From Parachlamydiales bacterium (GTDB lineage Bacteria > Chlamydiota > Chlamydiia > Chlamydiales > JABDDJ01): 64,000 bases of DNA. Of this stretch, positions 22,240-51,043 are shown piece by piece. The DNA lies in assembly GCA_041671045.1 (NCBI GenBank), contig JBAZCF010000006.1, positions 19,290 to 83,289 of the forward strand, written 5' to 3'. The notes below the pieces were generated by a model, which worked only from the letters and a program-made list of their open reading frames with translations, was not told the origin of the DNA and made no database searches. Positions within the stretch are counted from its first letter, which is position 1, and the number at the start of each line of letters is the position of its first letter. Made by a program: the position numbers and the translations under genes.

Positions 22240-23205
22240 TTAGGTGATTGGGTGGGGGTAGAAATTGCGGTACCAGGCGACAAAACGGCCAAGTCCTTCA
22301 TCGAGGGAGATCTTAGGGGAAAAACCTAGGTCTTTTTGACTTTTTTCGATATCGGCGTAGGTGGCGACGACATCGCCCAGCTGCATAGGTTTTTTTATGA
22401 GGATGGCTTTTCTGTTTAGGTGTTTTTCGAGGGATTCGACAAGTGACATTAATTTCTCGGGTTTGTGGTTCCCTAGGTTATACACTTCACAGGTGCAGTT
22501 TTTTTCTATGGCAGCGTCTATTCCGGCAATAATATCATCAATATAAGTGAAGTCCCGCTCCATGTTTCCGTCATTGAAGATGGAGATGGGCTGACCTGCG
22601 AGGATGGCTTTAGTGAAGCTGAAGTAGGCCATATCCGGTCTTCCCCAGGGTCCGTAAACGGTAAAAAAACGGAGGCCGGTGCTTTTTACTTTGTAGAGAT
22701 GGTGGTAGGTATATGCCATGAGTTCGTTGCATTTCTTAGTGACACCGTACAGGCTGGCTTGATGGTCAGTCCGGTCTGTGGTGTCGAAGGGAACTTTTTC
22801 ATTTAAGCCATACACGGAGGAGGAAGAGGCGTAAGTCAGGGGGATATGTGGAAATGCGCGGCAGGTTTCAAGCACATTAAGAAAACCCTCAATATTTGCC
22901 TTGATATATGCTTGCGGACATTCCGTCGAATAGCGCACTCCGGCTTGGGCAGCCAAATGGACGAGGTTATCCGGTTCGAATTCTTCCGTAATTTTCCTAA
23001 GGACTTCGTTTTCAGCAATATCGGCGCGCAGGATAGAAATGCCTTCTTTTTCGAGAAGTTCGCGTCGTTTTTCCTTTAAGAGAGGATCGTAGTAGGAATT
23101 AAAGTTATCCACTCCTAATACCGTGTTTCCTTTTTGCGCGAGGTATTTTGCTAAATGGAAGCCGATGAATCCGGCGGCGCCGGTAATAAGGATTTTTTTG
23201 CTCAT
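22240..23205 (-). CDS. NAD-dependent epimerase, UDP-glucuronate 4-epimerase-like (SDR)
   Basis: TGAAGFIGFHLAKYL Rossmann motif, HLAAQAGVRYS, YASSSSVYG, catalytic YxxxK in YGVTKKCNELMAYTY, and RFFTVYGPWGRPDMA. This is collinear with the Cap1J/LpsL-type UDP-GlcA 4-epimerases as I recall them. Confidence 0.8.
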   Translation of the reverse strand: MSKKILITGAAGFIGFHLAKYLAQKGNTVLGVDNFNSYYDPLLKEKRRELLEKEGISILRADIAENEVLRKITEEFEPDNLVHLAAQAGVRYSTECPQAYIKANIEGFLNVLETCRAFPHIPLTYASSSSVYGLNEKVPFDTTDRTDHQASLYGVTKKCNELMAYTYHHLYKVKSTGLRFFTVYGPWGRPDMAYFSFTKAILAGQPISIFNDGNMERDFTYIDDIIAGIDAAIEKNCTCEVYNLGNHKPEKLMSLVESLEKHLNRKAILIKKPMQLGDVVATYADIEKSQKDLGFSPKISLDEGLGRFVAWYRNFYPHPIT

Positions 23206-23310
23206 GATAAATTTTATAAATCGGTAAGGGAGGAAAAGGCTATCCTAAAAAAAATTATTCAATCTATATCTATACAACTATACACAATACGGTGATTTAT
23301 TCGTGGCAAT

Positions 23311-25353
23311 ATGTTGAATATCAATCCTAGCAATGAAAATTCAGAAGATTATTACGAAGCTTACGATAATACTAAACTAGGTAGAGGTATTTTACGCCGT
23401 AAATGGCTGGTTGCATTTTCCACTCTCCTCTTCTTTTTATTGGGCAGTTATCTAACTTTTAGCTTTCTGACTACATACAAAGCTGAGGCGGTCGTTGTTT
23501 TCCAGGAGCAGAAAGACCTTAAAGATGCTGCGAGTGGAATAACCGTCGTGGATTTCAGTTTACCAACGGCTTTGGACATCATTAAGCTACCCACTAATAT
23601 CGAAGCAGTCAAATCCATCCTCAGTTTGAATATGTCCACCTCTGCGCTGGCGTCGCTGTATGAAATCCCTACTCCACGCAGCGAGTCCAACCTTATTCGT
23701 ATTATTGCACATAATGCCAATCCTGCTTTGGCTATTAGTTTAGCTAATACTCTGGCAGATGTGGCTGTAAAGAATAGCCAGAAGTATACTGAAAAGCAGC
23801 TTCAATTAAATTTACAAAACTATCAGGGCGAGCTGGAGACAACCCGCAACCGATTAAGCGTTCAGTTAAATGAGTTAGAAGAGTTTAAGAAAAAATTTCA
23901 ATATTTTGAGATGACTCCTAATAATGTGACATTGCTGAAAGAGATTTCCGAGGCTAAAAAAAATCTGCAGGATGCTGAAACGAATTTCAACACACTGTTA
24001 GTTGAGTATCAGAACCTTAAGAGAGAGTCCGCAAATTTACCGTTATCTACACGTACGGCCTCCTATACATTTATAGCTCGTATCAACGCTTTAGAATCAG
24101 CTCTAGTAGAAGCTAAGACAAAGTATTCCACTGAAAATCCGAAATTGAAAGCTTTGGAATCCGAAATTGAGCAGTTAAAATCGCGTAAAAATGCCCCGTC
24201 GAAGGACGAGGAAAATGTGGGTAGTCCTGATTTTGGAAAGGATAATTTAGAGATTGAACTCATACGTATGCAGGGAAGAGTCAGGGCTGCGCAGAAGACT
24301 AAGCAGGATATGTCAGAGCGATTAATAGACCTGCAAAAAGCTCTAGTGGATTTACCGGCTCTGCAGGTGTCTTTTACTAAGCTATTGCAAGCTAAAGAAC
24401 TTACTATCGACCAGGAAAAATTTCTTACAAAAGCGATTGAGGACACTAAGCTTATGCTTAACATCCCTCGCGGCAGCTTAGAATTCTATCAAAAAGCTTT
24501 AGACGCAAAACCTTCACGTGATTCGATACTGGTTTATTTCTTGCCGTTTGTGGGAGCACTATTCGGTTTATTTGCCGGAGCAGCAGCTGCTTTATTGTTA
24601 GAGGTGCGGGAAGATAAAATCAGGACCGCTAAACAGCTTACCAATACCTTTGGCCTACCCTGCTGGCAAGTAATTCCGGAACTGCCTAACTTACTTCCCG
24701 GTACGAGTGCGGAGAGGTTAAAGTTCTTTATTAGACGGATCGATGAAAGGTTAGAGAATGTTCAGGGAGAGGTGGCTCCATCCAAAATTGCCCTTGTAGG
24801 ATCGCAGGACGATGAGGGAAAGACGGTCCTTGCATATAATATAGCACGATATGCTGCAGATAGAGGTAAAAAGACTGCGTTTCTTTGCATGGAAAGTAAA
24901 AGCCCGCAAGAACTGCCGCAGTATACCAAAGCTGGCGTAGAAAAATTCCTCAAGGGTGAAGCAGGCTTAGATGAAGTGACGGATAATATTGGTATGGCAT
25001 TTTTAAAAATTGTGCGCGAAGAAACGGCGATGAAAGAGCTGATACGCTCCCCTCGCATGGCTGAGCTTTGGAAAGAATTAGAAATGAAATATGAATTCAT
25101 AGTGGTCGATACACCTGGAATTATTGCTGAAGATTATTCCATCAATCTGGCCAAGCAGTGCAATATTGTCCTTTTTGTCATTGATTCCAGTCATACTCCT
25201 CAACAACTTATTGAAGAGTCTTTGCAAAGTTTATCAAAAAACGGCATAACGCCCACGGGTGTTATTTTAAATCGGGCAATGCCCATTTATATAGAAGACG
25301 AGACTATCTTACGGCAATTGCAACCACGCGGAAAGAATGCTTCGAATACTTAA
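23311..25353 (+). CDS. Polysaccharide co-polymerase (Wzz domain, coiled coil) fused to a BY-kinase-like P-loop domain (Wzc/GumC/EpsB-like)
   Basis: 680 aa. The layout is an N-terminal TM, a long coiled-coil periplasmic region, a second TM (VYFLPFVGALFGLFAGAAAALLL), then a P-loop domain with SQDDEGKT (Walker A-like) and FIVVDTPG (Walker B). Confidence 0.75.
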   Translation: MLNINPSNENSEDYYEAYDNTKLGRGILRRKWLVAFSTLLFFLLGSYLTFSFLTTYKAEAVVVFQEQKDLKDAASGITVVDFSLPTALDIIKLPTNIEAVKSILSLNMSTSALASLYEIPTPRSESNLIRIIAHNANPALAISLANTLADVAVKNSQKYTEKQLQLNLQNYQGELETTRNRLSVQLNELEEFKKKFQYFEMTPNNVTLLKEISEAKKNLQDAETNFNTLLVEYQNLKRESANLPLSTRTASYTFIARINALESALVEAKTKYSTENPKLKALESEIEQLKSRKNAPSKDEENVGSPDFGKDNLEIELIRMQGRVRAAQKTKQDMSERLIDLQKALVDLPALQVSFTKLLQAKELTIDQEKFLTKAIEDTKLMLNIPRGSLEFYQKALDAKPSRDSILVYFLPFVGALFGLFAGAAAALLLEVREDKIRTAKQLTNTFGLPCWQVIPELPNLLPGTSAERLKFFIRRIDERLENVQGEVAPSKIALVGSQDDEGKTVLAYNIARYAADRGKKTAFLCMESKSPQELPQYTKAGVEKFLKGEAGLDEVTDNIGMAFLKIVREETAMKELIRSPRMAELWKELEMKYEFIVVDTPGIIAEDYSINLAKQCNIVLFVIDSSHTPQQLIEESLQSLSKNGITPTGVILNRAMPIYIEDETILRQLQPRGKNASNT

Positions 25354-26452
25354 TCTATTACTCGTCATTTTTCTTGTATCCGCTTGCAGCAGGACTAACT
25401 CATTAGAGAATTTAGTGCACACGAATAGACGTCCGCAGGTGATGACGTACGAAGCGGAGTGTGTGATCGACTATGATATCTGCTGCCAGTTTGATGAGTT
25501 TCCGGCTGCTTTTCCGGAATGTGTAGAGTTTTTGCCTATAGACCATAATCCACAAATCCCTAAGGAATATGTTTTTGGAGTTGGCGACGCCTTGGATGTG
25601 GGTATATTTGGCGATGATGAGACTTATGTTGAAGATGCGACGATAGCCCCTGACGGCAACTTATATTATCTATTTCTCGATGCCATTCCTGCTGCAGGAT
25701 ATACAGTAACACAGCTTTCGCATGCTATTGCAGCGCAGCTCAATGATTTCTACGTGAATCCTTTAGTTTCTATTGTCCCTAAAACCGCTATAAACAGAAC
25801 CTTCAGCATCATCGGACGCGTCAACTATCCGGGAGTTTATCCACTTTTGGAACCTAAAAAACTGCGCGATGCCATTGCCGATGCCGGCGGCCCTATTACC
25901 ACATATTATCATGATTCATTACGTTCCGACATCTATGAATTGGCCGATTTGAAGAATTCCTTCTTAGTGCGCGACAATAAGAAGATGGCTTTGGATTTTC
26001 AAACACTGCTCCATGCGGCGGATAATTCCAGCAATGTGCCAATACTTCCTGGCGACTACATTTATATCGCTGCAGCAGAGCACCAGTACGTCTATGTCTT
26101 AGGAAATGTCTTAACACCGCAGAGAGTTTCGTATACGGAAGGATTGACTGCGATGGGTGTTTTAGCTATTGCAGGGGGGTGGAATAGCGGAACGCCTTAT
26201 TCTGCCGATCCCTCCAAGCTCTTAGTTATCCGCGGGTCGTTAAAATGTCCTTGCGTCATGCAGGTAGATTTGGATCAGGTGATGGCGGGTTTTGCACGGG
26301 ATCTTTTTGTACAGCCGGGGGACATCATCTATGCACAGGATAAAACAGTCCGTTTTGGCCGTGAGTTAGTCAGGCTAGCAATTTCAACATTCCTCCAGTC
26401 CTTTGCATCATCTGCGGGTAGTTATTGGAGCAGCATTGAATGGTTCAATTAA
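25337..26452 (+). CDS. Polysaccharide export protein, Wza-like lipoprotein (Poly_export + SLBB)
   Basis: Lipobox LVSAC, a Poly_export-like EYVFGVGDALDVGIFG, and SLBB-like turns ILPGDYIYI and VQPGDIIYA. Confidence 0.7.
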   Translation: MLRILNLLLVIFLVSACSRTNSLENLVHTNRRPQVMTYEAECVIDYDICCQFDEFPAAFPECVEFLPIDHNPQIPKEYVFGVGDALDVGIFGDDETYVEDATIAPDGNLYYLFLDAIPAAGYTVTQLSHAIAAQLNDFYVNPLVSIVPKTAINRTFSIIGRVNYPGVYPLLEPKKLRDAIADAGGPITTYYHDSLRSDIYELADLKNSFLVRDNKKMALDFQTLLHAADNSSNVPILPGDYIYIAAAEHQYVYVLGNVLTPQRVSYTEGLTAMGVLAIAGGWNSGTPYSADPSKLLVIRGSLKCPCVMQVDLDQVMAGFARDLFVQPGDIIYAQDKTVRFGRELVRLAISTFLQSFASSAGSYWSSIEWFN

Positions 26453-27672
26453 TGGCACATACTAGGTATTTTTTCATTTTTTTCGTATTGTTTGCCGGAG
26501 TTTTATGCGGGCAGGAAGAGACTTTATGGGAGCCTCCTGCAGCACCTATCAACCACATAGATCTTCCTGACATAGTCATTGAGACAATTGAGATTGGTTC
26601 ACAAGGTGCTGCTGCTTCCAATCCCCTTTTTCCTGAAGCGCCCTCAGCTTCGCCCGTTATTATAGAAGATGAGAAGCAGAAAGCCCATTCTGAGAGTGAT
26701 TCAGCAGATAGGGAAACATCCGGAGAATATCGGTTAAGGATAGGCGATACACTTGTTGTAAGTATCTATGGGGAGCCTAACTCGACTCGGACGGTGAATA
26801 TCGACCCGACGGGTTGCATGTCATTTCTCTTTGTTAATGCACTCCAAGTTAAGGGGTTGACAATTGGGGAAGCAAGGTTGGCTTTGCAGAGGAAGCTAAA
26901 GAAATATTATAAAACGCCGCTCGTCTCCATTACTTTGACAGATTATGCAGGATATTATTACTCCATTCTAGGAGAGGTCCGCCAACCGGGTAGATACCGT
27001 ATCAAAGGCCATTCGACAATTCTGACTGCCGTGGCACAATCTGCAGGATTTAAGACACAGGAATACCGTTTTGAGACATATGATCAGGCCGATTTAAAGC
27101 GTTCCTTCTTAGCTAGGAATAATGACTATTACCCTGTGGACTTTGAGCGCTTAATAAAGAGGGGTGATACTTCTCAAGACGTGGATCTAGAAAATGGAGA
27201 CTATATTTATATTGCGCCCTCCTATTTAGACAGAGTCTTTGTTTTGGGGGAGGTGCGGCGTCCCGTGTTCATCCAGTATTTGCATACCATTTCATTGGCA
27301 GAGGCGTTAGCTGAGGCTGGCGGATTGAATTTTCGCGCAAGTTCTCGTGTAGCAATATTACGGGGCTCATTATGCTCCCCTACTCAATACTTGATCGATA
27401 TCAACCGTATTTTGAAAGGGTATGCCTGTGATTTTACTCTGGAACCTGGAGATATTATCTATGTTCCTCCCTTCCGTTTTAATACGATGAAAGAGATTGT
27501 AAAAAGCGCAATCCGCACCTTCGTAGGAACGGTGGCTTCTGTTGCAGGTACGCGAGCATTTATTGCCATTACTCCCGCTGCTGATGATGCGGATTTGATT
27601 CAACCGATCCCTATTATCAACACCGGTGGGAACATCATTACCCCGGTAACGCCCTTTACACCGCAGTTTTAG
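26440..27672 (+). CDS. Second polysaccharide export protein, Wza-like
   Basis: Signal peptide, EYRLRIGDTLVVSIYGEPN (Poly_export motif), LENGDYIYIAP and LEPGDIIYVPP (SLBB). The start is at 26440, or at 26452 (TAATG overlap with the upstream stop). Confidence 0.7.
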   Translation: MVQLMAHTRYFFIFFVLFAGVLCGQEETLWEPPAAPINHIDLPDIVIETIEIGSQGAAASNPLFPEAPSASPVIIEDEKQKAHSESDSADRETSGEYRLRIGDTLVVSIYGEPNSTRTVNIDPTGCMSFLFVNALQVKGLTIGEARLALQRKLKKYYKTPLVSITLTDYAGYYYSILGEVRQPGRYRIKGHSTILTAVAQSAGFKTQEYRFETYDQADLKRSFLARNNDYYPVDFERLIKRGDTSQDVDLENGDYIYIAPSYLDRVFVLGEVRRPVFIQYLHTISLAEALAEAGGLNFRASSRVAILRGSLCSPTQYLIDINRILKGYACDFTLEPGDIIYVPPFRFNTMKEIVKSAIRTFVGTVASVAGTRAFIAITPAADDADLIQPIPIINTGGNIITPVTPFTPQF

Positions 27673-29173: not shown

Positions 29174-29270
29174 ATTCTCCCTAGGAGGACTTGTGAAACT
29201 TTAGAATTCGTTTACATGTAATGTATCCCTGTGTTAAATAAAAATTTAGGATAATTATTTAGAGGTAGAA

Positions 29271-29786
29271 ATGGCTGCTGACAATACAAAAATTGAATCC
29301 GTACGAGTGGCGCTGAAAAGAATTTTTGCGTTACCAGTGAATAAATCCACTTTTAGGCAAGTGCAAAATGCAGTTGCTGTGATCTTCCAAAGTGAACCTA
29401 ACCATGCAAATGAAGTATTAGAGGCGCTTTTCACAGGCAATTTTAAAAATGGGCAGGAATCGCTTAAAGGCCTTTACAAAGAATATGACGAGCAGTTAAA
29501 AGTTGCCCGCGAAGTATTTGAAAGGGGATCATTCCTAACATTGATCACTTCAGACAGACTTGCACAAGGCGATAGAGTCATGTTCAACAATCTAATCCGC
29601 AGGATCGACGGCGAGCAGATAGAGTTTATCACTGACATTGAAAGTACATTCCAGATGATAAAACACTTTATTGGAAGACTCCAGGAAGTGCAGTCATTGG
29701 ATGTAGATAAGAAGCTTAGAGAAGTTGTGAAAAATGAAATCGCTGATCTCCACCGTATGACCGACACAATAATTGCAGCGAAGTAG
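29271..29786 (+). CDS. Hypothetical cytoplasmic alpha-helical protein
   Basis: 171-aa ORF with no signal peptide. No motif was recognised. Confidence 0.5.
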   Translation: MAADNTKIESVRVALKRIFALPVNKSTFRQVQNAVAVIFQSEPNHANEVLEALFTGNFKNGQESLKGLYKEYDEQLKVAREVFERGSFLTLITSDRLAQGDRVMFNNLIRRIDGEQIEFITDIESTFQMIKHFIGRLQEVQSLDVDKKLREVVKNEIADLHRMTDTIIAAK

Positions 29787-29999
29787 TAAAAGCTTCAAAA
29801 TTCAGAGCGCTCGTTGCGTTTTAACCTCAAATACATAGAATGCTGCTCCATTTTAAGTATTTGGGGTTCCTGTTGTCAGTATTTCCCTTTTTCAAAAAAG
29901 TTATCTCCCTTCTGCTTCTCCTCTATGTGCAACAACGTTTGATCATACAAAAAACCAGCTACGGGGAAAAGACTTTTCTAATGCAGTAGAGAAGCGAAT

Positions 30000-30024
30000 A
30001 GCAGGTATCTAGAAAATACCTGCT
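30000..30024. terminator. Hairpin between convergent genes (candidate bidirectional terminator)
   Basis: AGCAGGTAT-ctagaaa-ATACCTGCT, a 9-bp stem immediately after the stop of the 30028-31392 gene. Confidence 0.35.
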
Positions 30025-30027
30025 GAA

Positions 30028-32221: not shown

Positions 32222-32240
32222 AAAAGTTACCCTTTGTTTA

Positions 32241-34121: not shown

Positions 34122-34142
34122 GAGCTAAGGAGTTAAACTTTT

Positions 34143-34171
34143 TTGATTTTAATGCAATAAATACATAAATT
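34143..34171 (+). promoter_or_regulatory. Candidate promoter in the divergent TolC-operon / M50 gene intergenic region
   Basis: TTGATT-17 nt-TAAATT in a 76-bp AT-rich divergent intergenic region. Confidence 0.25.
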
Positions 34172-34197
34172 TTATTTTTTATTGTATAAAAATTATT

Positions 34198-39222: not shown

Positions 39223-39282
39223 AATTATTCCTAATTCTAAGGAACTAAATATATCTACTGATTACTTAAAATAAAAGTACTA

Positions 39283-40230: not shown

Positions 40231-40284
40231 AGGGAACTCGATTTTCTTGCAAAATTGCAGTTTCTACTATTTATTTCAATCCAC

Positions 40285-43631: not shown

Positions 43632-43632
43632 A

Positions 43633-44850
43633 TTAAAATAGGCTGCTTAATGTTTTTGTGTTTTTCTCTAAATTATATTCATCCTCTATTCGCTGCCGTC
43701 CTGATTGAACAATTTTCTGTTGCAGCTCAGCATTCTCGGAGAGATGCGCTATTGCATTCTGTAAACTAATAACATCTGAGGGGGCTACAAGGATTCCGTC
43801 AATCCCATTTCTGATCAGTTCCGGCGTGCCATTGATCCATGTGCTGATGCAAGGAATTTTCATGGCCATAGCCTCCATCAGAACAATAGGGATGCCTTCG
43901 GCAAACGTAGCCAGAACAAATAAATCTGCATGCTGCATATGTTTTAAAGTTTCATGATGGGATAAAGGCCCTTTGAAGCGTATTTCATCCACCACATCTA
44001 AGCGCATAGCAAGCTCCTCAAGTTCAGCCCTTTCAGGCCCGCTTCCTATCAAAGTCAGCTCAAAAAATTTTCCCTGTTCCTTAAGGTTTGCAATAGCTTG
44101 AATTAGGATAGAGAATCCCTTTACTGGAACTAATCGACCTACGGTAACAATTTGTTTTCTTGGGTTGTTGCTCTTTTCATGGGTTGAAGGCAAAGGAGTA
44201 ATTTTGCTCACGTCCACACCCATACGGACTATATGCAGCTTTTCCCATTCTGTGATTTTGAGATGCTTCAATATCTGGCTTTGAGAATAAAAGCTGATGC
44301 ACCGAATCCAATCGGCATCTTGAACCTTGATAGGCAGGCCTTCCATTGTCTCATCATAGAAGATATCCGGACCATGAATCGAAAGGGAAAGCTTAAAGGG
44401 TTGAAGGCGTTTTGCAATCATAGCCACCGTAGCAGCCACATTCCCGAAATAGGCATGTACTTGCTCGCTATTCTGAGCGCTAAACCAGCGTGCCAATAGC
44501 AGGGCTTCACCAAAATAGCCAAATAAGTATTTTATGCTCCGACGTGTTTGCCGTATATATTTCCATGTGAAGCTCAATGCTTGAAAAAAGCGTACAGGAT
44601 TGAAGATGAGGTATTGAAATAGAGCGTCAATGGCTGTAATGACACCCTTTTCTTTGATATAGAAAGTATTTTTTTCTTCTTCTCTGACTTCAATGCTTTT
44701 AGCCATCTCTTCGATATTGGAATTATTGATGGACGCCACCACAACTTTTTTACCCGCCTGGCGTAGAAAAGCAATTTCTTGCTGTATAAAGGTATGGGAT
44801 ACGGCAGGATAACAACTTATAACGTAAATGATAGTATTAGAATCTGACAC
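43633..44850 (-). CDS. Glycosyltransferase family 4 (GT-B, WcaL-like)
   Basis: GRLVPVKGF, LIGSGPERAELEE, and the EGIPIVLMEAMAMKIPCIST E-x7-E region. Confidence 0.8.
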   Translation of the reverse strand: MSDSNTIIYVISCYPAVSHTFIQQEIAFLRQAGKKVVVASINNSNIEEMAKSIEVREEEKNTFYIKEKGVITAIDALFQYLIFNPVRFFQALSFTWKYIRQTRRSIKYLFGYFGEALLLARWFSAQNSEQVHAYFGNVAATVAMIAKRLQPFKLSLSIHGPDIFYDETMEGLPIKVQDADWIRCISFYSQSQILKHLKITEWEKLHIVRMGVDVSKITPLPSTHEKSNNPRKQIVTVGRLVPVKGFSILIQAIANLKEQGKFFELTLIGSGPERAELEELAMRLDVVDEIRFKGPLSHHETLKHMQHADLFVLATFAEGIPIVLMEAMAMKIPCISTWINGTPELIRNGIDGILVAPSDVISLQNAIAHLSENAELQQKIVQSGRQRIEDEYNLEKNTKTLSSLF

Positions 44851-46282
44851 GTAATCTCCTACTAGGTCTATTTACAACCATAAAACCTTCCGCCCATCCC
44901 ATGAGTAGGAAAAACAAAGGTTGAATTTGTAAACCTAAAAAGACGGTAATAATTGAAACTGCAATAGCCACAATACATCCTAGTAATGTATAGCACAGGG
45001 ATTCTTCTATTCTTAGCTCATCATCAAAGCGCAATCCTTGTCTAGCTAAACGGACGCAAATCCAAAAAATGACAAATAGGAATGAAGCTAATCCTAATAA
45101 ACCATGTTTTAATATTAGAAAAAGATATTCATTATCCACAGATTGCAATGCTGCATCGTGCGGCCAGGTAGTATATCCCCAACCAAGAAATGGTTTTTGC
45201 TCTATAGCCTGGTAATAACTTTCAAATAACTTAGCCCTGTAAGCAGCGGTCGCCGTCATGTCAGGCGAGAGTGTGGCCGAAACCTCGGCATAATACCTAT
45301 AAACTATGTATCCAAATATCAGAGCTAAGAAAAAGGTTATAAGCCTCCAACCTAGAGCCCACGTATGACGACGGGAATATCCTGCTGTTGCAAATAATAT
45401 TCCTGAAGCAGCCCCCACGAGGGGGCCGCGGGAGATAGTCATCAGTAATCCTAAGAGGATGATGCCGGCAAAAAACCATCCTTTTGAAACTGGAATAGGG
45501 CTTGTCTCTACATTTAATTCCTTGTAACTGCTTCTTGGCACAAGCCACGCAAAGCTAAAAAGAAAGTTTAAACTTTTTATCCAGCGGTGGAAAAGCGTTT
45601 TAGGGATGGCGCGGTGCGAATGGCCCCATTGTCCGGTCCGTGTTAGCCAATAGTTGAGGATAAATCCAATAGAAAGTGCAATTCCAAAAAGAATAGTTTG
45701 TACAAAAGGTCCGCCGATACGCACCAAGCCATAACGATATAGTGTGGGCCAATCTTCTCCTTGACCCGGAAAGAAGGGCTTCATTACAGCGACAAAAGGA
45801 TTAGTGACAAAGCGCATTTCGTATAAGGAGATAATGACGCATATCACCAATAAAATAACGATACGAGAGGCATAAAGATCGCTTTTACCTTTGCGATGAA
45901 TTAAGGCTTTAGCTAACAGATAGGGAAAAGCTACTTTAAAGACCATGTCGATCAAAAGAATTAAGGATAGCCTTTCTTTCCCTTCAATATGTGCCGTATT
46001 GTAATGCTCCGAAACACAGCAGCAGAAAATAAAAAGAAAAATCCAAATGTCCATCCAGGACCAACTCCAAAAGCGGATGTATTTGACTGCACAAAAAATA
46101 GCAATGGGAAAAATAGCTGCAGAAGCCGTAGAGAGACTTGGAAGTCCGCTGATCTCACTGTAAAAAACCTGTGGTACAAGAATCAATACGGGCAGGTAAA
46201 CATTGCGGAAGGCGCTTTCATCCCCTTTAACGCATAAAACTATAATAGCGATGAGTGCCGGAAGGAATATCAGGAAGAACAT
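44837..46282 (-). CDS. Wzy / O-antigen ligase family polymerase
   Basis: 481 aa, polytopic. A Wzy_C-like block is present (LLMTISRGPLVGAASGILFATAGY), along with a large loop. Confidence 0.65.
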   Translation of the reverse strand: MFFLIFLPALIAIIVLCVKGDESAFRNVYLPVLILVPQVFYSEISGLPSLSTASAAIFPIAIFCAVKYIRFWSWSWMDIWIFLFIFCCCVSEHYNTAHIEGKERLSLILLIDMVFKVAFPYLLAKALIHRKGKSDLYASRIVILLVICVIISLYEMRFVTNPFVAVMKPFFPGQGEDWPTLYRYGLVRIGGPFVQTILFGIALSIGFILNYWLTRTGQWGHSHRAIPKTLFHRWIKSLNFLFSFAWLVPRSSYKELNVETSPIPVSKGWFFAGIILLGLLMTISRGPLVGAASGILFATAGYSRRHTWALGWRLITFFLALIFGYIVYRYYAEVSATLSPDMTATAAYRAKLFESYYQAIEQKPFLGWGYTTWPHDAALQSVDNEYLFLILKHGLLGLASFLFVIFWICVRLARQGLRFDDELRIEESLCYTLLGCIVAIAVSIITVFLGLQIQPLFFLLMGWAEGFMVVNRPSRRLRVRF

Positions 46283-47556
46283 GAGTGCCCTTCCTTTGCT
46301 ATAAATTCATTATAGGTATCTAGGATATCATTCGCTTTAGCACTCCATGAAAAAGCTTTAGCTCTTTGACGCGCGCATTCACCCATTTTTAGCCTTCGAG
46401 AAGGATTGAAAGTTAATTCTTCCATAGCAGAACTGAAATCAGCCGCTAACGTTTGGGGATCAGTCGCCGATAAAAGGATTCCGCACGAAGAATCGGCATA
46501 TTCCCCTACACCCCCGTAGTTCACACCTACAATAGGCAACCCTGCAGCCATAGCTTCTAGGATGACCGCACCTCCAAAATCCTTGACAGAAGGGAAACAG
46601 AATATGTCCGCACTTTCATAGTGCGGCAACAACTGATTGTGGGGAACCCAGCCTGTAAATTGTACAAAGTCTTCTAAGTGCAACTTATGGACGAGAGCCT
46701 CTAGTTGTTTCCTTTCCGATCCATCCCCCACAATTGTCAGACAAATTTTCTCCGGCATTAGCTGAAGGGCATTGATAAGTATATCTACGCATTTAACAGG
46801 CTCCAAACGCCCCACAAATAAGGCGCGGCAACCGTTCTTTGCCTCTCGTCTAAGAGAGAAGTATTCATCATCGACTCCATTTTCTGAGAGTTTCACTAGA
46901 TTGCTTTCAGGGAAAATGACTTTAAGTGCTTGCAACGTATAATCTGAACCAACCCATACCACTTTGGAATTATGGTAGGTTGTTTTGTATCCCGGAAGAT
47001 ATTTGGCAAACCGTTTCAATGCCTGAAAACCTTGATGTTCTTTCTTTGCTACTTCAGAAAAGCCTGGGGGAAAAGGAATTCCCCCGTTCACCGGGCCCAG
47101 GAAAAAAGGGGTGGATTTACACACGGAAGCAATTTTCACTGGATAGCGTGGAATAATCGGTGTGAAGGCATGCACTAGATCAAAATTACCCCTCGCCACT
47201 GACTCTGAAAAATGTTTATACACAGCGTGGTTGAACTCAGCATAAATAGGATAAAGCAGTGTATGGAATAACGGCCAGCGTGTGGCGCCCCTTGTAAGGA
47301 AAGACTCCAAAAACCGGTAATAATAGGTAGAAGCCCTGCTTTCAGGGAAAAATACGATATCTGCATCAGGGTGCAGTTTAAGCAAGGCTTCTTTATTTCT
47401 ACCGTGTGTTGCGAGCGTGACATCGGCAACAGCGCCTAGCGCCCGGTATAATTTATAACCTAAAAAAGGGACAGAGGACATTTCAGGATGGCATTGTTCA
47501 ATGATTAATAAAACCTTCAACCTCCTTGAAGTATCGCCTCCTACCTTCTGTATCAT
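46270..47556 (-). CDS. Glycosyltransferase family 4 (GT-B)
   Basis: FVGRLEPVKCVDILI, IVGDGSERKQLE, and FCFPSVKDFGGAVILEAMAAGLPIVGVNYGG. Confidence 0.8.
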   Translation of the reverse strand: MIQKVGGDTSRRLKVLLIIEQCHPEMSSVPFLGYKLYRALGAVADVTLATHGRNKEALLKLHPDADIVFFPESRASTYYYRFLESFLTRGATRWPLFHTLLYPIYAEFNHAVYKHFSESVARGNFDLVHAFTPIIPRYPVKIASVCKSTPFFLGPVNGGIPFPPGFSEVAKKEHQGFQALKRFAKYLPGYKTTYHNSKVVWVGSDYTLQALKVIFPESNLVKLSENGVDDEYFSLRREAKNGCRALFVGRLEPVKCVDILINALQLMPEKICLTIVGDGSERKQLEALVHKLHLEDFVQFTGWVPHNQLLPHYESADIFCFPSVKDFGGAVILEAMAAGLPIVGVNYGGVGEYADSSCGILLSATDPQTLAADFSSAMEELTFNPSRRLKMGECARQRAKAFSWSAKANDILDTYNEFIAKEGHSCSS

Positions 47557-48512
47557 TTGTACTCAATGGGTTCTTGCAGTGACTTCCAGTAATACTTCAT
47601 CTGCCCGTATGCCATTGGCAGATGTATAAAATGGCTATGGATACCATAAAGAATGCTATTTTTTAATGAAGCTCCTTGGGATAAAGCCCTAAGGGATGTT
47701 CGTGATACTAACGCGATAATGCAGAGAAGCCAAAGGATTAACCAGAAGGGAGAGCGGCTTATAAAAATAATTAGAGTTGCAGTTACGAAAATCGCAGCCT
47801 TGATAATGTTTTTCAGTGCAGTCCTTGTCCATAGGTCTGTTCCGAGTTCCTTAGAGCGTGCTGCCACTGCGGCATAGGCCATACCTGTCCGTACATTCCT
47901 TAACCAATATTGCTTGAAAGAATCCATTTCCAAATCATGCCAAGCCATAACTTCCGGAAGTTTCCTTATTTTCCATTCCTTCATTACCATTCGCTGACAC
48001 ATTTCAGGCTCTTCCCCGGCATAAAGATACTCATCGTAGCCGCTGACAGTTTGCAATGCGGTTTTTCTTATCAGCGCATTTCCTCCACAATACTCTATCC
48101 CCTTGATATTCTGTGCATTATCTAAATCTGCTACACCTTGATAGTATGAACGATCGGGATATCTTTCCCTTGTTTCTCCGTACACTATAGCAATTTTTTC
48201 TTCTGCTTTGAGAATATCTATACTACTAAGAACCGTCTCCGGCACTATTTCAGAATCTCCATCGACGAAGAGGATCCACTCTCCTTTTGCAGCTTTCCAA
48301 CCTATATTACGCGCTATTGCCGCAGAAAATTTAGGACCGGGCACAGCAATGACTTTTGCCCCGGCTTTCTTAGCGATTTCTACGCTATTATCTTTTGAGT
48401 CGGAATCTACATAAATGCATTCACCAGCCTCCAAAGGGATTACAGATTTAAAACAATTTTCTAATCTGTCGGCTTCATTTCTGCCAATAATAACAATGCT
48501 TAATTCTTTCAT
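47553..48512 (-). CDS. Glycosyltransferase family 2 with C-terminal TM helices
   Basis: LSIVIIGRNEADRL, YVDSDSKDNS, and FVDGDSEI (DxD). Confidence 0.75.
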   Translation of the reverse strand: MKELSIVIIGRNEADRLENCFKSVIPLEAGECIYVDSDSKDNSVEIAKKAGAKVIAVPGPKFSAAIARNIGWKAAKGEWILFVDGDSEIVPETVLSSIDILKAEEKIAIVYGETRERYPDRSYYQGVADLDNAQNIKGIEYCGGNALIRKTALQTVSGYDEYLYAGEEPEMCQRMVMKEWKIRKLPEVMAWHDLEMDSFKQYWLRNVRTGMAYAAVAARSKELGTDLWTRTALKNIIKAAIFVTATLIIFISRSPFWLILWLLCIIALVSRTSLRALSQGASLKNSILYGIHSHFIHLPMAYGQMKYYWKSLQEPIEYK

Positions 48513-49096
48513 AGTTGAAACAGTGAGGGGAAAAGTTCTTGAAGTTTATTCCAGGGCAAATATTTTTTTTCTATAGGTTGTACCACAATAAGCACAGGTT
48601 CTTCTCCAGAGTGTCCAAAAGTAAGGCGCCGCTTTGTAGCTTCCCACCAATAGCGATAAGTAGAACCAAAACTATGTTTACCGTCAGAAAACCAGTATAA
48701 TGCTTCTTGAGTTTGATCCCCTTTTTTTAAAGAAACCAAACGAGCATCTCCATTAGCAATAGGAAAGGGCTCATCCTTTATGACATCCCAACCCCCGCCA
48801 TGGAAGCAATAGTAGGGATCATGCACAACATGTCTATTACGTGTTCCGTCAATGACCGTAATGAAATAAGGGACATCCGCTACTGTGTATACTCGCTTCA
48901 GCAAGTCGACACCCCCAAAGATCTTAGCTTCGAAAGCAGATAGCGGTACATTTTCACCCAGATAAGCAGGCCCATAAAGAGGTAACTTGCTTATCCTTGC
49001 GGCAGCGCTTTGAAGCGGCATGAATTGCCAGAGCAAGGCAATGCATATTGCAAGAGCCAAGGTGATATACAGCAATGTTTTGCCGCTAGACTTCAT
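48509..49096 (-). CDS. EpsI-like (DUF3485, exosortase-associated) protein
   Basis: 195 aa with an N-terminal anchor. The pattern L.R.Y....V...I....(x)..VHDPYYCFHGGGW...V.L....Q.ALYWF.DG...LIVVQP matches my recollection of the EpsI family core (HsPe.Clpg.GW ... YWy..g). Confidence 0.5.
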   Translation of the reverse strand: MKSSGKTLLYITLALAICIALLWQFMPLQSAAARISKLPLYGPAYLGENVPLSAFEAKIFGGVDLLKRVYTVADVPYFITVIDGTRNRHVVHDPYYCFHGGGWDVIKDEPFPIANGDARLVSLKKGDQTQEALYWFSDGKHSFGSTYRYWWEATKRRLTFGHSGEEPVLIVVQPIEKKYLPWNKLQELFPSLFQL

Positions 49097-49556
49097 TTCT
49101 TAGGCTCCTTATTTTTAATAAAGTAGCTAGAGACACTCCTAGAACTTTGCAAGAAATGGCAATTCCGAATGGCCATTCCACCATAAGATATGAGAAAATA
49201 GGCATCCAAAGAATCGAGCTGGAAATCCAGAGGGGCGACTCTTTACTCCAAGGAATCCAAGCAGCAATGGAAAATGCAAACCCTATGTAAGTTAGAGTAT
49301 TCACCGCTGTTAAAATACCTGCAATGACCATCACCAAAGCAAGTTCAGATGCTACCCAGCTCGTTGGTAACCGCAAAGCATATAGCGGTAATAACCATAG
49401 GATAAACGGAATCCAGTTGAATGCATCGTAAGGCGAAACAAACCATGCTTCAAAAAGGGACAATGATTCCCAGAGACAGAAAGTTATAATACTTAAATGC
49501 AGTAAGTTAAGATTACGGTGACCCATATCCCCAATTTTTTTTTGTGGAATCTTCAA
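49086..49556 (-). CDS. Small polytopic membrane protein (about 6 TM), first gene of the polysaccharide operon
   Basis: 156 aa, Trp-rich and hydrophobic. It overlaps the EpsI-like gene by 11 nt. It is too short for a canonical exosortase, and no Cys/Arg/His exosortase motifs were recognised. Confidence 0.5.
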   Translation of the reverse strand: MKIPQKKIGDMGHRNLNLLHLSIITFCLWESLSLFEAWFVSPYDAFNWIPFILWLLPLYALRLPTSWVASELALVMVIAGILTAVNTLTYIGFAFSIAAWIPWSKESPLWISSSILWMPIFSYLMVEWPFGIAISCKVLGVSLATLLKIRSLRNEV

Positions 49557-50584: not shown

Positions 50585-50585
50585 C

Positions 50586-51023: not shown

Positions 51024-51043
51024 CGTGGTTTATGTATTTTGGC

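What the first reader, a model, noticed from the sequence alone, without database searches (positions are those of the whole stretch)
22240..49556. Complete-looking Wzx/Wzy-dependent surface polysaccharide locus in a Chlamydia-like genome, split in two by an unrelated secretion module
**Part 1 (22240-29173):**
- UDP-GlcA 4-epimerase-like SDR
- Wzc-like co-polymerase
- two Wza-like exporters
- Wzx

**Part 2 (39283-49556):** nine minus-strand genes with 1-14-nt overlaps, forming one operon.
- small membrane protein
- EpsI-like protein
- GT2
- GT4
- Wzy
- GT4
- GH-like hydrolase
- QRxRW GT2
- GT2

As far as I know, the classical pathogenic Chlamydiae have a truncated LOS and no capsule or EPS machinery. 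A Wza/Wzc/Wzx/Wzy gene set would therefore be an unusual envelope feature for the lineage I infer. The epimerase hints at galacturonic acid in the polymer. No initiating polyprenyl-phosphate glycosyl-phosphotransferase (WbaP/WecA type) and no ugd are visible in the window.
Basis: partly seen in the sequence, partly recalled or inferred. Interest (0 to 1): 0.6.

Follow-up and report, generated by a model that had tools for sequence, protein, structure and literature searches.

The report
Chlamydial exosortase-linked exopolysaccharide gene system
An uncultured environmental chlamydia carries an intact set of genes for making and exporting a surface sugar polymer; these genes are one arm of a "PEP-CTERM/exosortase" system that sorts an adhesin-like surface protein, a system that about one in twenty chlamydial species keep and that I found described in none of the chlamydial papers I could search.

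Summary
**Observation:** confirmed. All 14 polysaccharide genes are intact at the stated coordinates and have the predicted families.

**Lineage:** chlamydial. CT584 lies inside the locus, CPAF is elsewhere in the genome, and every close relative is a chlamydial MAG.

- The locus is the polysaccharide arm of a PEP-CTERM/exosortase system spread over at least four contigs.
- Contig C4 holds a TPR protein, an exosortase (Cys/Arg/His intact), a GT26-STAS fusion and a priming phosphotransferase.
- Contig C8 holds Ugd and a second priming enzyme.
- Contig C3 holds one PEP-CTERM protein with an adhesin-like domain.
- The window's first two operon genes (a small membrane protein and EpsI) normally follow the exosortase directly. 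TPR-exosortase-small membrane protein-EpsI-GTs-Wzy is contiguous in other chlamydiae, and the four-gene cassette also occurs in Verrucomicrobiota and Planctomycetota MAGs.

**Distribution (400 Chlamydiota genomes):**
- 23 have an exosortase.
- 18 of these have three or more Wza-like genes, and 18 have PEP-CTERM proteins.
- The Chlamydiaceae-like genomes have none of these.
- A single Wza-like gene is common (260 of 400).

**The 10-kb interruption:** real, since relatives have GT2 directly beside Wzx. It is a separate, independently distributed module.

**Limits:** function is inferred, and no expression or chemistry data exist.

**Verdict:** a new variant of a known kind, of moderate interest.

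The parts
22240..23205 (-). NAD-dependent SDR sugar-nucleotide 4-epimerase, UDP-GlcA 4-epimerase-like
   Evidence: - Pfam Epimerase, 181 bits.
- The best PDB relative is 5u4q (332 bits). Next come the 6zl6 series, MoeE5 and WbgU/WbpP.
- The motifs YASSSSVYG and YGVTKK are present and there is no TDE dehydratase motif.
23311..25353 (+). Polysaccharide co-polymerase (PCP) with a C-terminal P-loop domain; not a canonical Wzc tyrosine autokinase
   Evidence: - Scores: Wzz 24.6 bits, pepcterm_ChnLen 80.7, eps_fam 50.9.
- TM helices lie at 33-51 and 406-424.
- Walker A (GSQDDEGKT) and Walker B (IVVDTPG) are present. There is no DxD motif and no C-terminal Tyr cluster.
- The PCP-OPX1-OPX2 order is conserved in G367 and G064.
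25337..26452 (+). OPX1, Wza-like outer-membrane polysaccharide export lipoprotein
   Evidence: - Poly_export 52.5 bits, two SLBB domains, pepcterm_export 95 bits.
- Lipobox LVSAC.
- Conserved C-terminal amphipathic segment.
26440..27672 (+). OPX2, second Wza-like export protein, tandem paralogue (35% identical to OPX1)
   Evidence: - Poly_export 58.3 bits, pepcterm_export 111 bits.
- The AF2 model shows a folded core at residues 96-350 followed by a 27-residue C-terminal helix at 350-376.
27656..29173 (-). Wzx-type flippase (MOP superfamily)
   Evidence: - Polysacc_synt 28.8 bits against a 28.2 cut-off.
- At least 9 hydrophobic segments.
- 38-43% identical homologues sit beside the GT2 in L009, L010 and L011.
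29174..39282 (.). 10.1-kb interrupting block that is not part of the polysaccharide system: CT584 (29271-29786, +), two HlyD-type adaptors (30028-31392 and 31367-32221, -), a TolC-like OEP (32241-34121, -), an M50 protease-HlyD fusion (34198-36318, +) and a 988-aa orphan (36256-39222, -)
   Evidence: - Families.
- The block is absent from the reference loci.
- The M50-HlyD fusion occurs in 32 of 401 chlamydial genomes. 17 of these lack an exosortase, and where both occur the fusion lies elsewhere in the genome.
- CT584 is directly adjacent to the M50-HlyD fusion in G039 as well.
39283..40230 (-). GT2 glycosyltransferase; last gene of the operon, adjacent to Wzx in relatives
   Evidence: - Glycos_transf_2 88 bits.
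- L011 has this GT2 at 16581-17510 directly followed by Wzx at 17537-19048.
40285..41421 (-). Membrane-embedded GT2 with DAD and QRARW motifs (EpsU-like)
   Evidence: - NCBIfam EpsU 200.6 bits, below the 700-bit cut-off.
- QRARW at residue 256; TM helices at 8-26, 290-308 and 317-335.
41421..43631 (-). Secreted clan GH-A glycoside hydrolase with an N-terminal CBM-like beta-sandwich; no existing Pfam or NCBIfam family
   Evidence: - No family hit.
- Invariant EFGNENWNW (N418, E419) and YEVN (E533) across 10 homologues.
- AF2 model: pLDDT 85, pTM 0.86.
- Foldseek matches GH51 (E 6e-22), GH79 and GH30.
43633..44850 (-). GT4 glycosyltransferase (EpsE-like)
   Evidence: - Glycos_transf_1 129 bits; EPS_EpsE 223 bits, below the 400-bit cut-off.
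- Syntenic with Wzy and the hydrolase in L009, L011 and L013.
44837..46282 (-). Wzy-type polymerase (O-antigen ligase/polymerase superfamily)
   Evidence: - Wzy_C 44 bits against a 31.7 cut-off.
- 10 hydrophobic segments.
- 27-36% identical homologues occupy the same operon position in chlamydial loci.
46270..47556 (-). GT4 glycosyltransferase (EpsH-like)
   Evidence: Glycos_transf_1 113 bits; EPS_EpsH 231 bits, below the 800-bit cut-off.
47553..48512 (-). GT2 glycosyltransferase
   Evidence: - Glycos_transf_2 77 bits.
- Follows EpsI directly in G367 as well.
48509..49096 (-). EpsI-family (DUF3485) exosortase partner protein with one N-terminal TM helix
   Evidence: - PF11984 34.9 bits against a 26.1 cut-off.
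- Matches the EpsI-like tails of XrtO, XrtD and XrtN.
- 39-51% identical homologues occur in 20 of 25 tested genomes, that is in all with the ~270-aa chlamydial-type exosortase and in none of the five others. They lie about 0.5 kb downstream of the exosortase.
49086..49556 (-). Small polytopic membrane protein; the conserved third gene of the exosortase cassette (exosortase, this protein, EpsI)
   Evidence: - No family hit and no similarity to the exosortase.
- Homologues at 22-31% identity lie between the exosortase and EpsI in chlamydial, verrucomicrobial and planctomycete loci.

Best explanation
The two halves in the window are the polysaccharide-building and export arm of one PEP-CTERM/exosortase-associated, Wzx/Wzy-dependent exopolysaccharide system. 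In this genome the system is scattered over at least four contigs.

**Proposed working. The steps are inferred from family membership and synteny; none is shown experimentally.**
1. Ugd (contig C8) makes UDP-glucuronate. The window's SDR epimerase probably converts it, or a related UDP-sugar, into its 4-epimer.
2. A small monotopic phosphoglycosyl transferase primes the polyprenyl-phosphate carrier. Its gene on C4 lies in the gene cluster that holds the exosortase. A second copy lies near Ugd on C8.
3. A GT26 (C4), three GT2 and two GT4 enzymes (window) build a repeat unit.
4. Wzx flips the repeat unit and Wzy polymerises it.
5. The PCP and the tandem pair of Wza-like OPX proteins carry the polymer across the periplasm and outer membrane.
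6. A secreted clan GH-A hydrolase trims or releases the polymer.
7. In parallel, the exosortase (C4) works with the small membrane protein and EpsI, which are encoded at the head of the window's operon. Together they cleave the PEP-CTERM anchor of a secreted adhesin-like protein (C3), which then associates with the polymer at the cell surface.

The 10-kb HlyD/TolC/M50 block with CT584 is a separate chlamydial neighbourhood that now lies between the last GT2 and Wzx.
For: **Families**
- The window genes have the expected families.

**Missing functions found elsewhere in the same genome**
- Exosortase at C4:93428-94186. PF09721 scores 79.6 bits (cut-off 25.7) and the exo_archaeo signature 45 bits (cut-off 23). 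Cys172, Arg217 and His238 are invariant.
- A PrsT-like TPR protein, a GT26-STAS fusion, a nucleotidyltransferase and a PHPT lie beside it.
- Ugd (NDP-sugar dehydrogenase, 462 bits, cut-off 190) and a second PHPT are on C8.
- One PEP-CTERM protein is at C3:63096-64127. It has a signal peptide and the C-terminus VPEPSTYLILGSMLLICIYAARRK. Scores are TIGR02595 20.5 bits (cut-off 16), PF07589 21.2 bits (cut-off 20.7) and pAdhesive_15 80.5 bits.

**Physical linkage in relatives**
- G367 contig 12 carries, in about 25 kb: a PEP-CTERM gene, TPR, TPR, exosortase, a small membrane protein, EpsI, GT2, Wzy, GT4, GT2, GT2, GT4, then OPX2, OPX1 and PCP.
- G258 and G064 are similar.
- In L014 the hydrolase sits next to TPR and GT26-STAS. 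In L016 GT2, GT2, GT26, PHPT, a response regulator and the hydrolase lie together.
- The cassette TPR, exosortase, small membrane protein, EpsI is kept in most of 29 loci.

**Co-occurrence across 400 Chlamydiota genomes**
- 23 have an exosortase. 18 of these have three or more Poly_export genes and 18 have PEP-CTERM hits.
- Among the 377 without an exosortase the figures are 2 and 3.
- Fisher p is about 1e-24 for each comparison.
- EpsI occurs in all 20 tested genomes with the chlamydial-type exosortase and in none of the five others.

**Other support**
- All ORFs are intact and full length against relatives.
- GC and GC3 lie within the genome's 5-95% range, apart from the epimerase's GC3 (0.522), which is just above it.
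- Literature model: EPS genes, the TPR gene prsT and a PEP-CTERM gene are needed for floc formation in Aquincola (PMC9850573). The system was defined in PMC1569441.
Against: - There is no expression, proteomic or carbohydrate evidence.
- This genome has a single PEP-CTERM protein, against a median of eight in Haft's 2006 set, and its score is only just above the cut-offs.
- Here the exosortase is not next to its usual partners, so the split system could be partly disabled.
- The exosortase, TPR protein, PCP, OPX proteins and all glycosyltransferases score below every NCBIfam equivalog cut-off. Specific roles, sugars and linkages are therefore unknown.
- The PCP lacks a tyrosine cluster, and I did not look for a Wzb-type phosphatase.
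- The window's OPX proteins give no Wza_C Pfam hit. Their membrane-spanning helix is only a low-confidence prediction.
- The co-occurrence statistics are not corrected for phylogeny.
Confidence: 0.75

Rival explanations
1. The locus builds a lipid-linked glycan that is transferred to lipid A-core (an O-antigen-like extension of chlamydial LOS) or onto the PEP-CTERM protein by the Wzy_C-family protein. That protein would act as a WaaL-like or PglL-like ligase and not as a polymerase. Under this reading there is no free exopolysaccharide.
For: - The Pfam family that hits the 481-aa protein (Wzy_C, 'O-antigen ligase') also contains WaaL ligases and PglL-type O-oligosaccharyltransferases (my knowledge).
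- The locus holds only one such protein.
- PEP-CTERM proteins have been proposed to be glycosylated (PMC9850573; epsSMASH preprint).
- The cargo protein is rich in Ser, Thr and Asn.
Against: - A PCP and two OPX export proteins are conserved in tandem with the system in many genomes. These are hallmarks of export of a high-molecular-weight polymer and are not needed for LPS ligation or protein glycosylation.
- The Wzy-like gene keeps a fixed place among the glycosyltransferases next to Wzx-type loci.
Confidence: 0.1
2. The system is a decaying relic. After the cassette was split between contigs, the polysaccharide genes and the EpsI pair are no longer functional together and are on their way to loss, as happened in most chlamydiae.
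For: - Only about 5% of chlamydial species keep the system.
- G044 has an exosortase remnant with an internal stop.
- This genome has a single cargo protein.
- Here the cassette is broken between the exosortase and the small membrane protein.
Against: - All 14 window genes and the C4, C8 and C3 genes are intact and full length.
- The catalytic Cys, Arg and His of the exosortase are kept.
- Gene overlaps typical of translational coupling are kept.
- The same split arrangement (TPR, exosortase, then GT26-STAS on the opposite strand) is found in another MAG (L036). It has therefore been stable.
Confidence: 0.08
3. The contig, or the locus, does not belong to the chlamydia. It would be a binning error or a very recent transfer from a free-living bacterium in which such loci are routine.
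For: - The genome is a 20-contig MAG. Three small contigs have aberrant GC: C17 53%, C19 27%, C20 64%.
- A 'Methylococcaceae' MAG contig (L016) carries a similar gene set.
- A few Verrucomicrobiota and Planctomycetota MAG contigs nest among the chlamydial exosortases.
Against: - CT584 lies inside the locus.
- trpS and uvrB lie on the same contig. These two genes flank CT584 in the Chlamydiaceae-like genomes. A 724-aa GreA and a 545-aa ThyX are also on the contig.
- Estimated contamination is 1.4%.
- GC and GC3 of nearly every gene lie within the genome's range.
- The system recurs in 20 or more chlamydial genomes, including assemblies of 2-4 contigs.
Confidence: 0.03

Closest known systems
PEP-CTERM/EpsH (exosortase) system with its associated EPS locus (Haft et al. 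2006, PMC1569441; Methylobacillus sp. 12S eps cluster; Zoogloea and Aquincola floc-formation clusters, PMC9850573)
   Same: - An exosortase with Cys, Arg and His.
- An EpsI partner.
- A TPR protein next to the exosortase, with a PEP-CTERM gene upstream of it in relatives.
- PEP-CTERM cargo with a signal peptide.
- The whole set is embedded in a Wzx/Wzy-type EPS cluster with PHPT, PCP, OPX and GT2/GT4 genes.
- In all hidden-Markov scans the best-scoring models for the PCP and OPX proteins are the XrtA-system ones.
   Different: - The host phylum is Chlamydiota, which is known only as intracellular bacteria.
- The exosortase fails the XrtA cut-off (50.6 bits against 208) and every other named Xrt class.
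- A separate, conserved small membrane protein lies between the exosortase and EpsI.
- No PrsK/PrsR pair was seen next to it. The neighbouring regulator is a receiver-RsbW-like-STAS protein.
- No sigma-54 promoter was found upstream of the cargo gene.
- This genome has only one cargo protein, and its cassette is split across contigs.
Myxococcus xanthus EPS Wzx/Wzy pathway (EpsZ, EpsU, EpsH, EpsE, EpsD, EpsA, EpsV, EpsY; NCBIfam NF0418xx models)
   Same: - The best NCBIfam hits of four glycosyltransferases are EpsU (200.6 bits), EpsE (222.9), EpsH (230.6) and EpsA (141.5).
- The PHPT hits EpsZ at 238 bits.
- The pathway logic is the same: PHPT, GTs, Wzx, Wzy, PCP, OPX.
   Different: - All scores are far below the equivalog cut-offs of 400-800 bits.
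- The gene order differs.
- As far as I know, the Myxococcus pathway has no exosortase, EpsI or PEP-CTERM component.
E. coli group 1 capsule and colanic acid export machinery (Wza-Wzb-Wzc)
   Same: - An OPX lipoprotein with Poly_export and SLBB domains and a predicted C-terminal helix.
- A PCP with two TM helices and a cytoplasmic P-loop domain.
   Different: - There are two tandem OPX paralogues, not one.
- Neither gives a Wza_C Pfam hit.
- The PCP has no tyrosine cluster and no Walker A' DxD motif.
- I did not look for a Wzb phosphatase.
GH51 alpha-L-arabinofuranosidases and GH79 beta-glucuronidases/heparanases (clan GH-A)
   Same: - The 736-aa protein is modelled as a (beta/alpha)8 barrel plus a C-terminal beta-sandwich.
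- It has an invariant Asn-Glu (acid/base position) and a second invariant Glu (nucleophile position).
   Different: - Sequence identity is 10-16% and it belongs to no Pfam or NCBIfam family.
- It has an extra N-terminal CBM-like sandwich.
- Its substrate is unknown.

Membership tests
Wzx/Wzy-dependent polysaccharide pathway | Initiating polyprenyl-phosphate phosphoglycosyl transferase (PHPT/PNPT) | tested here: met
   - Absent from the window.
- Bac_transf hits at C4:97217-97783 (227 bits) and C8:114449-115027 (218 bits).
- EPS_sugtrans scores 286.6 and 271.4 bits (cut-off 295.6).
- The C4-type PHPT is syntenic with the system in G064 and L016.
Wzx/Wzy-dependent polysaccharide pathway | Wzx flippase | tested here: met
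   - Polysacc_synt 28.8 bits against a 28.2 cut-off, which is marginal.
- Polytopic.
- Conserved beside the GT2 in relatives.
Wzx/Wzy-dependent polysaccharide pathway | Wzy polymerase | tested here: met
   - Wzy_C 44 bits against a 31.7 cut-off, with 10 hydrophobic segments.
- Whether it is a polymerase or a ligase was not resolved.
Wzx/Wzy-dependent polysaccharide pathway | PCP and OPX export pair | tested here: met
   - Both OPX proteins score above the Poly_export and SLBB cut-offs.
- The PCP has the right topology and conserved synteny, but Wzz scores 24.6 bits, below the 25.5 cut-off.
Wzc-type bacterial tyrosine (BY) autokinase | Walker A, A' (DxD) and B motifs plus a C-terminal tyrosine cluster | tested here: not met
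   - Walker A and B are present.
- There is no DxD motif, and only one Tyr in the last 30 residues (sequence).
- Tyrosine-kinase models score 26-51 bits, against cut-offs of 108-1248.
PEP-CTERM/exosortase (EpsH) system, Haft 2006 | Exosortase-family membrane protein with conserved Cys, Arg and His | tested here: met
   - PF09721 79.6 bits (cut-off 25.7) and TIGR04178 45.1 bits (cut-off 23).
- C172, R217 and H238 are invariant in four chlamydial sequences.
- The gene is on contig C4, not in the window.
PEP-CTERM/exosortase (EpsH) system, Haft 2006 | [quoted passage not shown] | tested here: met
   - C3:63096-64127 ends in ...VPEPSTYLILGSMLLICIYAARRKINITA.
- TIGR02595 20.5 bits (cut-off 16) and PF07589 21.2 bits (cut-off 20.7).
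- This genome has only one such protein. Related chlamydiae have 1-16.
PEP-CTERM/exosortase (EpsH) system, Haft 2006 | EpsI domain fused to or adjacent to the exosortase | tested here: met
   - PF11984 34.9 bits (cut-off 26.1). TIGR02914 scores only 20.5 bits against 42.8.
- EpsI is near the exosortase in 20 or more related loci, but on a different contig here.
PEP-CTERM/exosortase (EpsH) system, Haft 2006 | Exosortase gene embedded among EPS biosynthesis genes | tested here: met
   - On C4 it lies by GT26, PHPT and a nucleotidyltransferase.
- It is contiguous with GTs, Wzy, OPX and PCP in G367 and G258.
XrtA subclass with PrsK/PrsR/PrsT regulation | XrtA-level sequence membership, PrsT equivalog, PrsK/PrsR pair and sigma-54-dependent cargo promoter | tested here: not met
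   - XrtA 50.6 bits against 208, and PrsT 44.6 bits against 312.
- No -24/-12 match upstream of the cargo gene or the operons.
- PrsK and PrsR were not searched genome-wide.
Myxococcus xanthus EPS pathway equivalogs (EpsU, EpsE, EpsH, EpsA, EpsZ) | Score above the NCBIfam equivalog cut-offs | tested here: not met
   Scores against cut-offs: 200.6/700, 222.9/400, 230.6/800, 141.5/500 and 238.2/800.
UDP-glucuronate 4-epimerase | Extended SDR with an S/T-Y-K triad, no dehydratase Asp-Glu pair, and closest relatives that are characterised UDP-GlcA 4-epimerases | tested here: inconclusive
   - YxxxK and ASSSSVYG are present and TDE is absent.
- The second-best PDB group is the 6zl6 series, and MoeE5 also hits.
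- The best PDB hit, 5u4q (332 bits), was deposited as a dTDP-glucose 4,6-dehydratase.
- No NCBIfam equivalog cut-off is reached.
Glycoside hydrolase clan GH-A (GH51, GH79, GH30) | (beta/alpha)8 barrel with catalytic Glu after strand 4 (Asn-Glu) and Glu after strand 7 | tested here: inconclusive
   - The fold match is strong (Foldseek E 6e-22, probability 1.0) and the invariant NE and E residues are in register.
- There is no sequence-family membership.
- Activity is untested.

The most novel reading that the evidence does not exclude
**Proposal**
- A subset of Chlamydiota has retained an unnamed exosortase subclass that is shared with Verrucomicrobiota and Planctomycetota, possibly from the common ancestor of the three phyla.
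- The core of this subclass is a three-protein membrane unit: the exosortase, a dedicated small polytopic membrane protein, and EpsI.
- With a Wzx/Wzy polymer exported through a two-paralogue OPX channel, it coats the cell in an adhesin-polysaccharide matrix.

**Consequence if true**
- These members of a phylum regarded as obligately intracellular and capsule-free would build an extracellular matrix. It could serve attachment to hosts, survival of the extracellular stage, or even a biofilm-like phase.

**A further, weaker possibility**
- The M50-HlyD/TolC module, which has no inner-membrane transporter, is embedded in the locus here and is statistically enriched in exosortase-positive chlamydiae (15 of 23 against 17 of 377).
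- It might be the unknown route that takes processed PEP-CTERM proteins across the outer membrane.
Probability: 0.25. Interest if true: 0.75.

Novelty: new variant of a known kind. Interest (0 to 1): 0.55.

Why it matters
**For chlamydial biology**
- Textbook chlamydiae have a truncated LOS and no capsule.
- The two large chlamydial pangenome and evolution papers I could read do not mention polysaccharide, capsule, biofilm or exosortase at all.
- My full-text searches found no paper on exosortase, PEP-CTERM or Wzy in Chlamydiae.
- The data here show that about 5% of chlamydial species, spread over at least nine family-level groups, keep an intact matrix-building system with its own sorted adhesin. 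This points to an unstudied side of the extracellular stage: attachment, persistence outside hosts, and possibly the choice of host.

**For exosortase biology**
- What exosortases do with their cargo, and how the cargo leaves the cell, is still unknown.
- This compact subclass, shared by Planctomycetota, Verrucomicrobiota and Chlamydiota, offers a simple case to test. It has one to a few cargo proteins, a conserved extra membrane subunit and a separate EpsI.

**Limits**
- The system is still a recognisable member of a known kind, and everything about its function is inferred.

Tried and rejected
1. A crude scan of all genome ORFs for 'hydrophobic stretch plus basic tail' C-termini found no shared motif family and missed the real cargo. 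The TIGR02595 model found it.
2. Sigma-54 control, as in Aquincola and Zoogloea, was not supported. No TGGCAC-N5-TTGCW-like site (up to 3 mismatches, GG/GC kept) lies upstream of the cargo gene, the two window operons or the C4 operons. rpoN lying next to the C4 locus may be coincidence.
3. The 156-aa membrane protein is not a truncated exosortase. There is no similarity (BLASTP E 0.59) and no family hit. It is instead a conserved separate gene.
4. The YjbH/GfcD-like barrel at 11185-13371 is probably not the system's outer-membrane partner. It is single-copy in 22 of 25 genomes, including exosortase-negative ones, and usually lies far from the OPX pair. It is not system-specific, although a shared role is not excluded.
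5. An exosortase phylogeny to test vertical against horizontal origin gave a tree that is largely unresolved. Half of its inner branches have under 80% support, and a few Verrucomicrobiota and Planctomycetota MAG contigs fall among the chlamydial ones. No conclusion can be drawn.
6. Compositional evidence for recent transfer: none.
7. The search for related loci with the M50-HlyD protein found nothing. The genome search was used for it afterwards.
9. The chaperone-usher-like module at 49653-54545 has no homologues in the reference exosortase loci, so I treated it as unrelated.

Full report

Yes.

Part 1:
- SDR epimerase at 22240-23205(-).
- A 680-aa co-polymerase at 23311-25353(+).
- Two Poly_export/SLBB proteins at 25337-26452(+) and 26440-27672(+).
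- A Polysacc_synt flippase at 27656-29173(-).

Part 2 is nine minus-strand genes between 39283 and 49556:
- A 156-aa membrane protein.
- A DUF3485/EpsI protein.
- GT2, GT4, a Wzy_C protein, GT4.
- A 736-aa protein with no family.
- A membrane GT2 with DAD and QRARW motifs.
- A last GT2.

The junctions overlap by 1-14 nt, except for a 1-nt gap and a 54-nt gap. None of the genes is broken, and alignments to relatives cover essentially the full length of each protein.

**2. Lineage**

- CT584, the chlamydial type III secretion tip protein, lies inside the locus (PF17435, 89.5 bits against a 25-bit cut-off).
- A CPAF equivalog is on contig C8 (551 bits against 250).
- The window also carries GroEL, trpS, uvrB, a 724-aa GreA and a 545-aa ThyX.
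- In the 18 small Chlamydiaceae-like genomes whose CT584 locus I fetched, CT584-trpS-uvrB are contiguous. Here the three genes lie on one strand within 42 kb.
- The closest relatives of three unrelated proteins from the system are all chlamydial MAGs: Parachlamydiaceae, Waddliaceae and 'Chlamydiales'.
- The genome is 3.0 Mb in 20 contigs, 98.8% complete and 1.4% contaminated.
- The GC and GC3 of the locus genes lie inside the genome's 5-95% range, apart from the epimerase's GC3 (0.522), which is just above it.

**3. The missing pieces are elsewhere in the genome, and they change the reading**

- *Priming enzymes.* Whole-genome searches found two small phosphoglycosyl transferases, on C4 and C8.
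- *Ugd.* It is on C8, two genes from the second PHPT.
- *Exosortase.* It is at C4:93428-94186.
- *The C4 locus* reads: TPR protein, exosortase, GT26-STAS fusion, nucleotidyltransferase, PHPT, a receiver-RsbW-like-STAS regulator, then rpoN.
- *Catalytic residues.* The exosortase keeps the invariant Cys172, Arg217 and His238.
- *Cargo.* The PEP-CTERM model finds exactly one protein in the genome, at C3:63096-64127. It has a signal peptide, an 'ice-binding-like adhesive' domain (80.5 bits) and the C-terminus VPEPSTYLILGSMLLICIYAARRK.

**4. One system, shown by synteny and co-occurrence**

*Synteny*
- In G367 a single 25-kb stretch carries: a PEP-CTERM gene, two TPR genes, the exosortase, a 142-aa membrane protein, EpsI, GT2, Wzy, GT4, GT2, GT2, GT4, and on the other strand OPX2, OPX1 and PCP.
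- G258 and G064 show the same modules.
- In L014 the 736-aa gene sits next to the TPR and GT26-STAS genes. In L016 the GT2s, GT26, PHPT, regulator and 736-aa gene lie together.
- The four-gene cassette TPR, exosortase, small membrane protein, EpsI is kept in most of the 29 loci found with the exosortase alignment. These include Verrucomicrobiota and Planctomycetota MAGs.
- The three cassette genes overlap by a few bases.
- The window's operon therefore starts with the second and third genes of a cassette whose first gene, in this genome, is on another contig. One other MAG (L036) has the same broken arrangement.

*Co-occurrence over 400 Chlamydiota genomes*
- 23 have an exosortase (18 of 212 genera).
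- 18 of the 20 genomes with three or more Poly_export genes are among these 23.
- 18 of the 21 genomes with PEP-CTERM hits are among them.
- EpsI was found in all 20 tested genomes with the chlamydial-type exosortase and in none of the five others tested.
- Fisher tests give p of about 1e-24. These are not corrected for phylogeny.
- None of these features occurs in the 1.0-1.3-Mb Chlamydiaceae-like genomes.
- A single Wza-like gene, by contrast, is common: 260 of 400 genomes. In this genome that copy is a third OPX, with a Wza_C domain, at C7:37638-38699 near kdsA-like and LptC-like genes.

**5. The interruption**

- In L009, L010 and L011 the last GT2 is adjacent to Wzx. In the window, 10.1 kb separate them.
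- That block holds CT584, two HlyD adaptors, a TolC-like protein, an M50 protease-HlyD fusion and a 988-aa orphan. It has no counterpart in any reference locus.
- The M50-HlyD fusion occurs in 32 of 401 chlamydial genomes. 17 of these lack an exosortase, and where both occur it lies on other contigs or far away.
- Its divergent TolC neighbour is conserved.
- In G039, CT584 is directly next to the fusion.

One caveat remains: the module is enriched in exosortase-positive genomes (15 of 23 against 17 of 377). This may only reflect large-genome lineages.

**6. Components**

- *SDR.* It has the ASSSSVYG and YxxxK motifs and no dehydratase TDE motif. Its solved relatives include the 6zl6 series and MoeE5. 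The top hit, 5u4q, was deposited as a dTDP-glucose dehydratase. It is 'UDP-GlcA 4-epimerase-like', not proven.
- *PCP.* It has the expected two TM helices and Walker A and B motifs, but no tyrosine cluster. It is not a canonical Wzc.
- *OPX proteins.* OPX1 has a lipobox. Both OPX proteins end in a conserved amphipathic segment, which is modelled as a 27-residue helix in OPX2 at low confidence.
- *736-aa protein.* It is modelled with pLDDT 85 and matches GH51, GH79 and GH30 enzymes. The invariant N418-E419 and E533 sit at the catalytic positions.

**7. Mechanism**

The most likely working is given under 'best explanation'. It follows the general Wzx/Wzy scheme and the PEP-CTERM model of Haft 2006 and of the floc-formation studies. 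Every step is inferred from homology, synteny and co-occurrence.

**8. Novelty**

- The system type is known.
- The host phylum is new in the searchable literature. Haft 2006 does not mention Chlamydiae. Two chlamydial pangenome papers mention none of the relevant terms. Four full-text searches found nothing direct.
- The exosortase subclass is unnamed and has a conserved extra membrane subunit.
- Other new features are the tandem OPX pair, the PCP without a tyrosine cluster and the family-less hydrolase.
It is an AI note and I do not count it as evidence, but my independent results agree with it.

**9. Limits**

- This genome has a single cargo protein that scores only just above the cut-offs.
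- The origin of the system is unresolved.
- The co-occurrence tests are not corrected for phylogeny.

Noticed in passing
window 11185-13371 (+): A YjbH/GfcD-like outer-membrane beta-barrel (PF06082, 518 bits) lies in the most GC-rich 2 kb of the window (52% against about 42%). It is single-copy and 42-58% identical in 22 of 25 chlamydial genomes tested, with or without an exosortase. It could partner the widespread single Wza-like protein.
   Followed up: partly
G000 C7:37638-38699 (locus L056 8639-9700): A third OPX protein has a true Wza_C domain (32.8 bits) and lies beside kdsA-like (DAHP_synth_1) and LptC-like genes. It is probably the single Wza-like gene that 260 of 400 Chlamydiota genomes carry. 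Its cargo in chlamydiae is unknown.
   Followed up: partly
window 30028-36318: A TolC-like protein, two HlyD adaptors and a divergent M50 (daptide-type HExxH) protease-HlyD fusion occur with no ABC, RND or MFS inner-membrane transporter. The fusion is present in 32 of 401 chlamydial genomes and is enriched in exosortase-positive ones (15 of 23 against 17 of 377, uncorrected). It is directly next to CT584 in G039 as well.
   Followed up: partly
window 13937-14737 (-), 19784-20959 (-), 20978-22164 (-): Further glycosyltransferases (a GT2 and a Glyco_trans_1_2 protein) and two small orphan ORFs lie just upstream of the epimerase. They have no counterparts in the reference loci, so they may be lineage-specific additions to the polysaccharide locus.
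   Followed up: partly
window 18213-19208, 29271-29786, 58439-60469: trpS, CT584 and uvrB are contiguous (in the order CT584-trpS-uvrB) in the 18 small Chlamydiaceae-like genomes whose CT584 locus was fetched. Here they are spread over 42 kb with the polysaccharide genes, the secretion block and a fibre module between them. This looks like an expanded plasticity zone.
   Followed up: partly
G000 C4:94215-99973 (locus L005 12216-17974): A GT26 (WecG/TagA) glycosyltransferase is fused to a STAS domain. Two genes away is a receiver-RsbW-like-STAS protein, and rpoN follows. This suggests partner-switching control of polysaccharide synthesis.
   Followed up: no
G000 C7:42149-42934 (locus L056 13150-13935): A 261-aa protein has a eukaryote-type RING finger (zf-RING_2, 30 bits). 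It is a candidate E3-ligase-like effector.
   Followed up: no
window 36256-39222 (-): A 988-aa soluble orphan protein has no Pfam or NCBIfam hit and the lowest GC of the region (36%). It lies between the secretion block and the GT operon.
   Followed up: no
locus L016 (MAG labelled Methylococcaceae, CAIZPP010000083.1): A contig in a gammaproteobacterial bin carries the chlamydial-type GT2, GT2, GT26, PHPT, regulator and 736-aa hydrolase set at 36-55% identity. It is either a mis-binned chlamydial contig or a case of transfer.
   Followed up: no
genome contigs C17, C19, C20: Three small contigs have GC far from the genome mean of 41.8%: 53%, 27% and 64%. They may be contaminants or extrachromosomal elements.
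   Followed up: no
window 13406-13936 and 19235-19771: Earlier notes of this scan report two copies of a hairpin-ended repeat. They bracket the segment from the GT2 to trpS, and the second copy abuts the left edge of the extended polysaccharide region.
   Followed up: no
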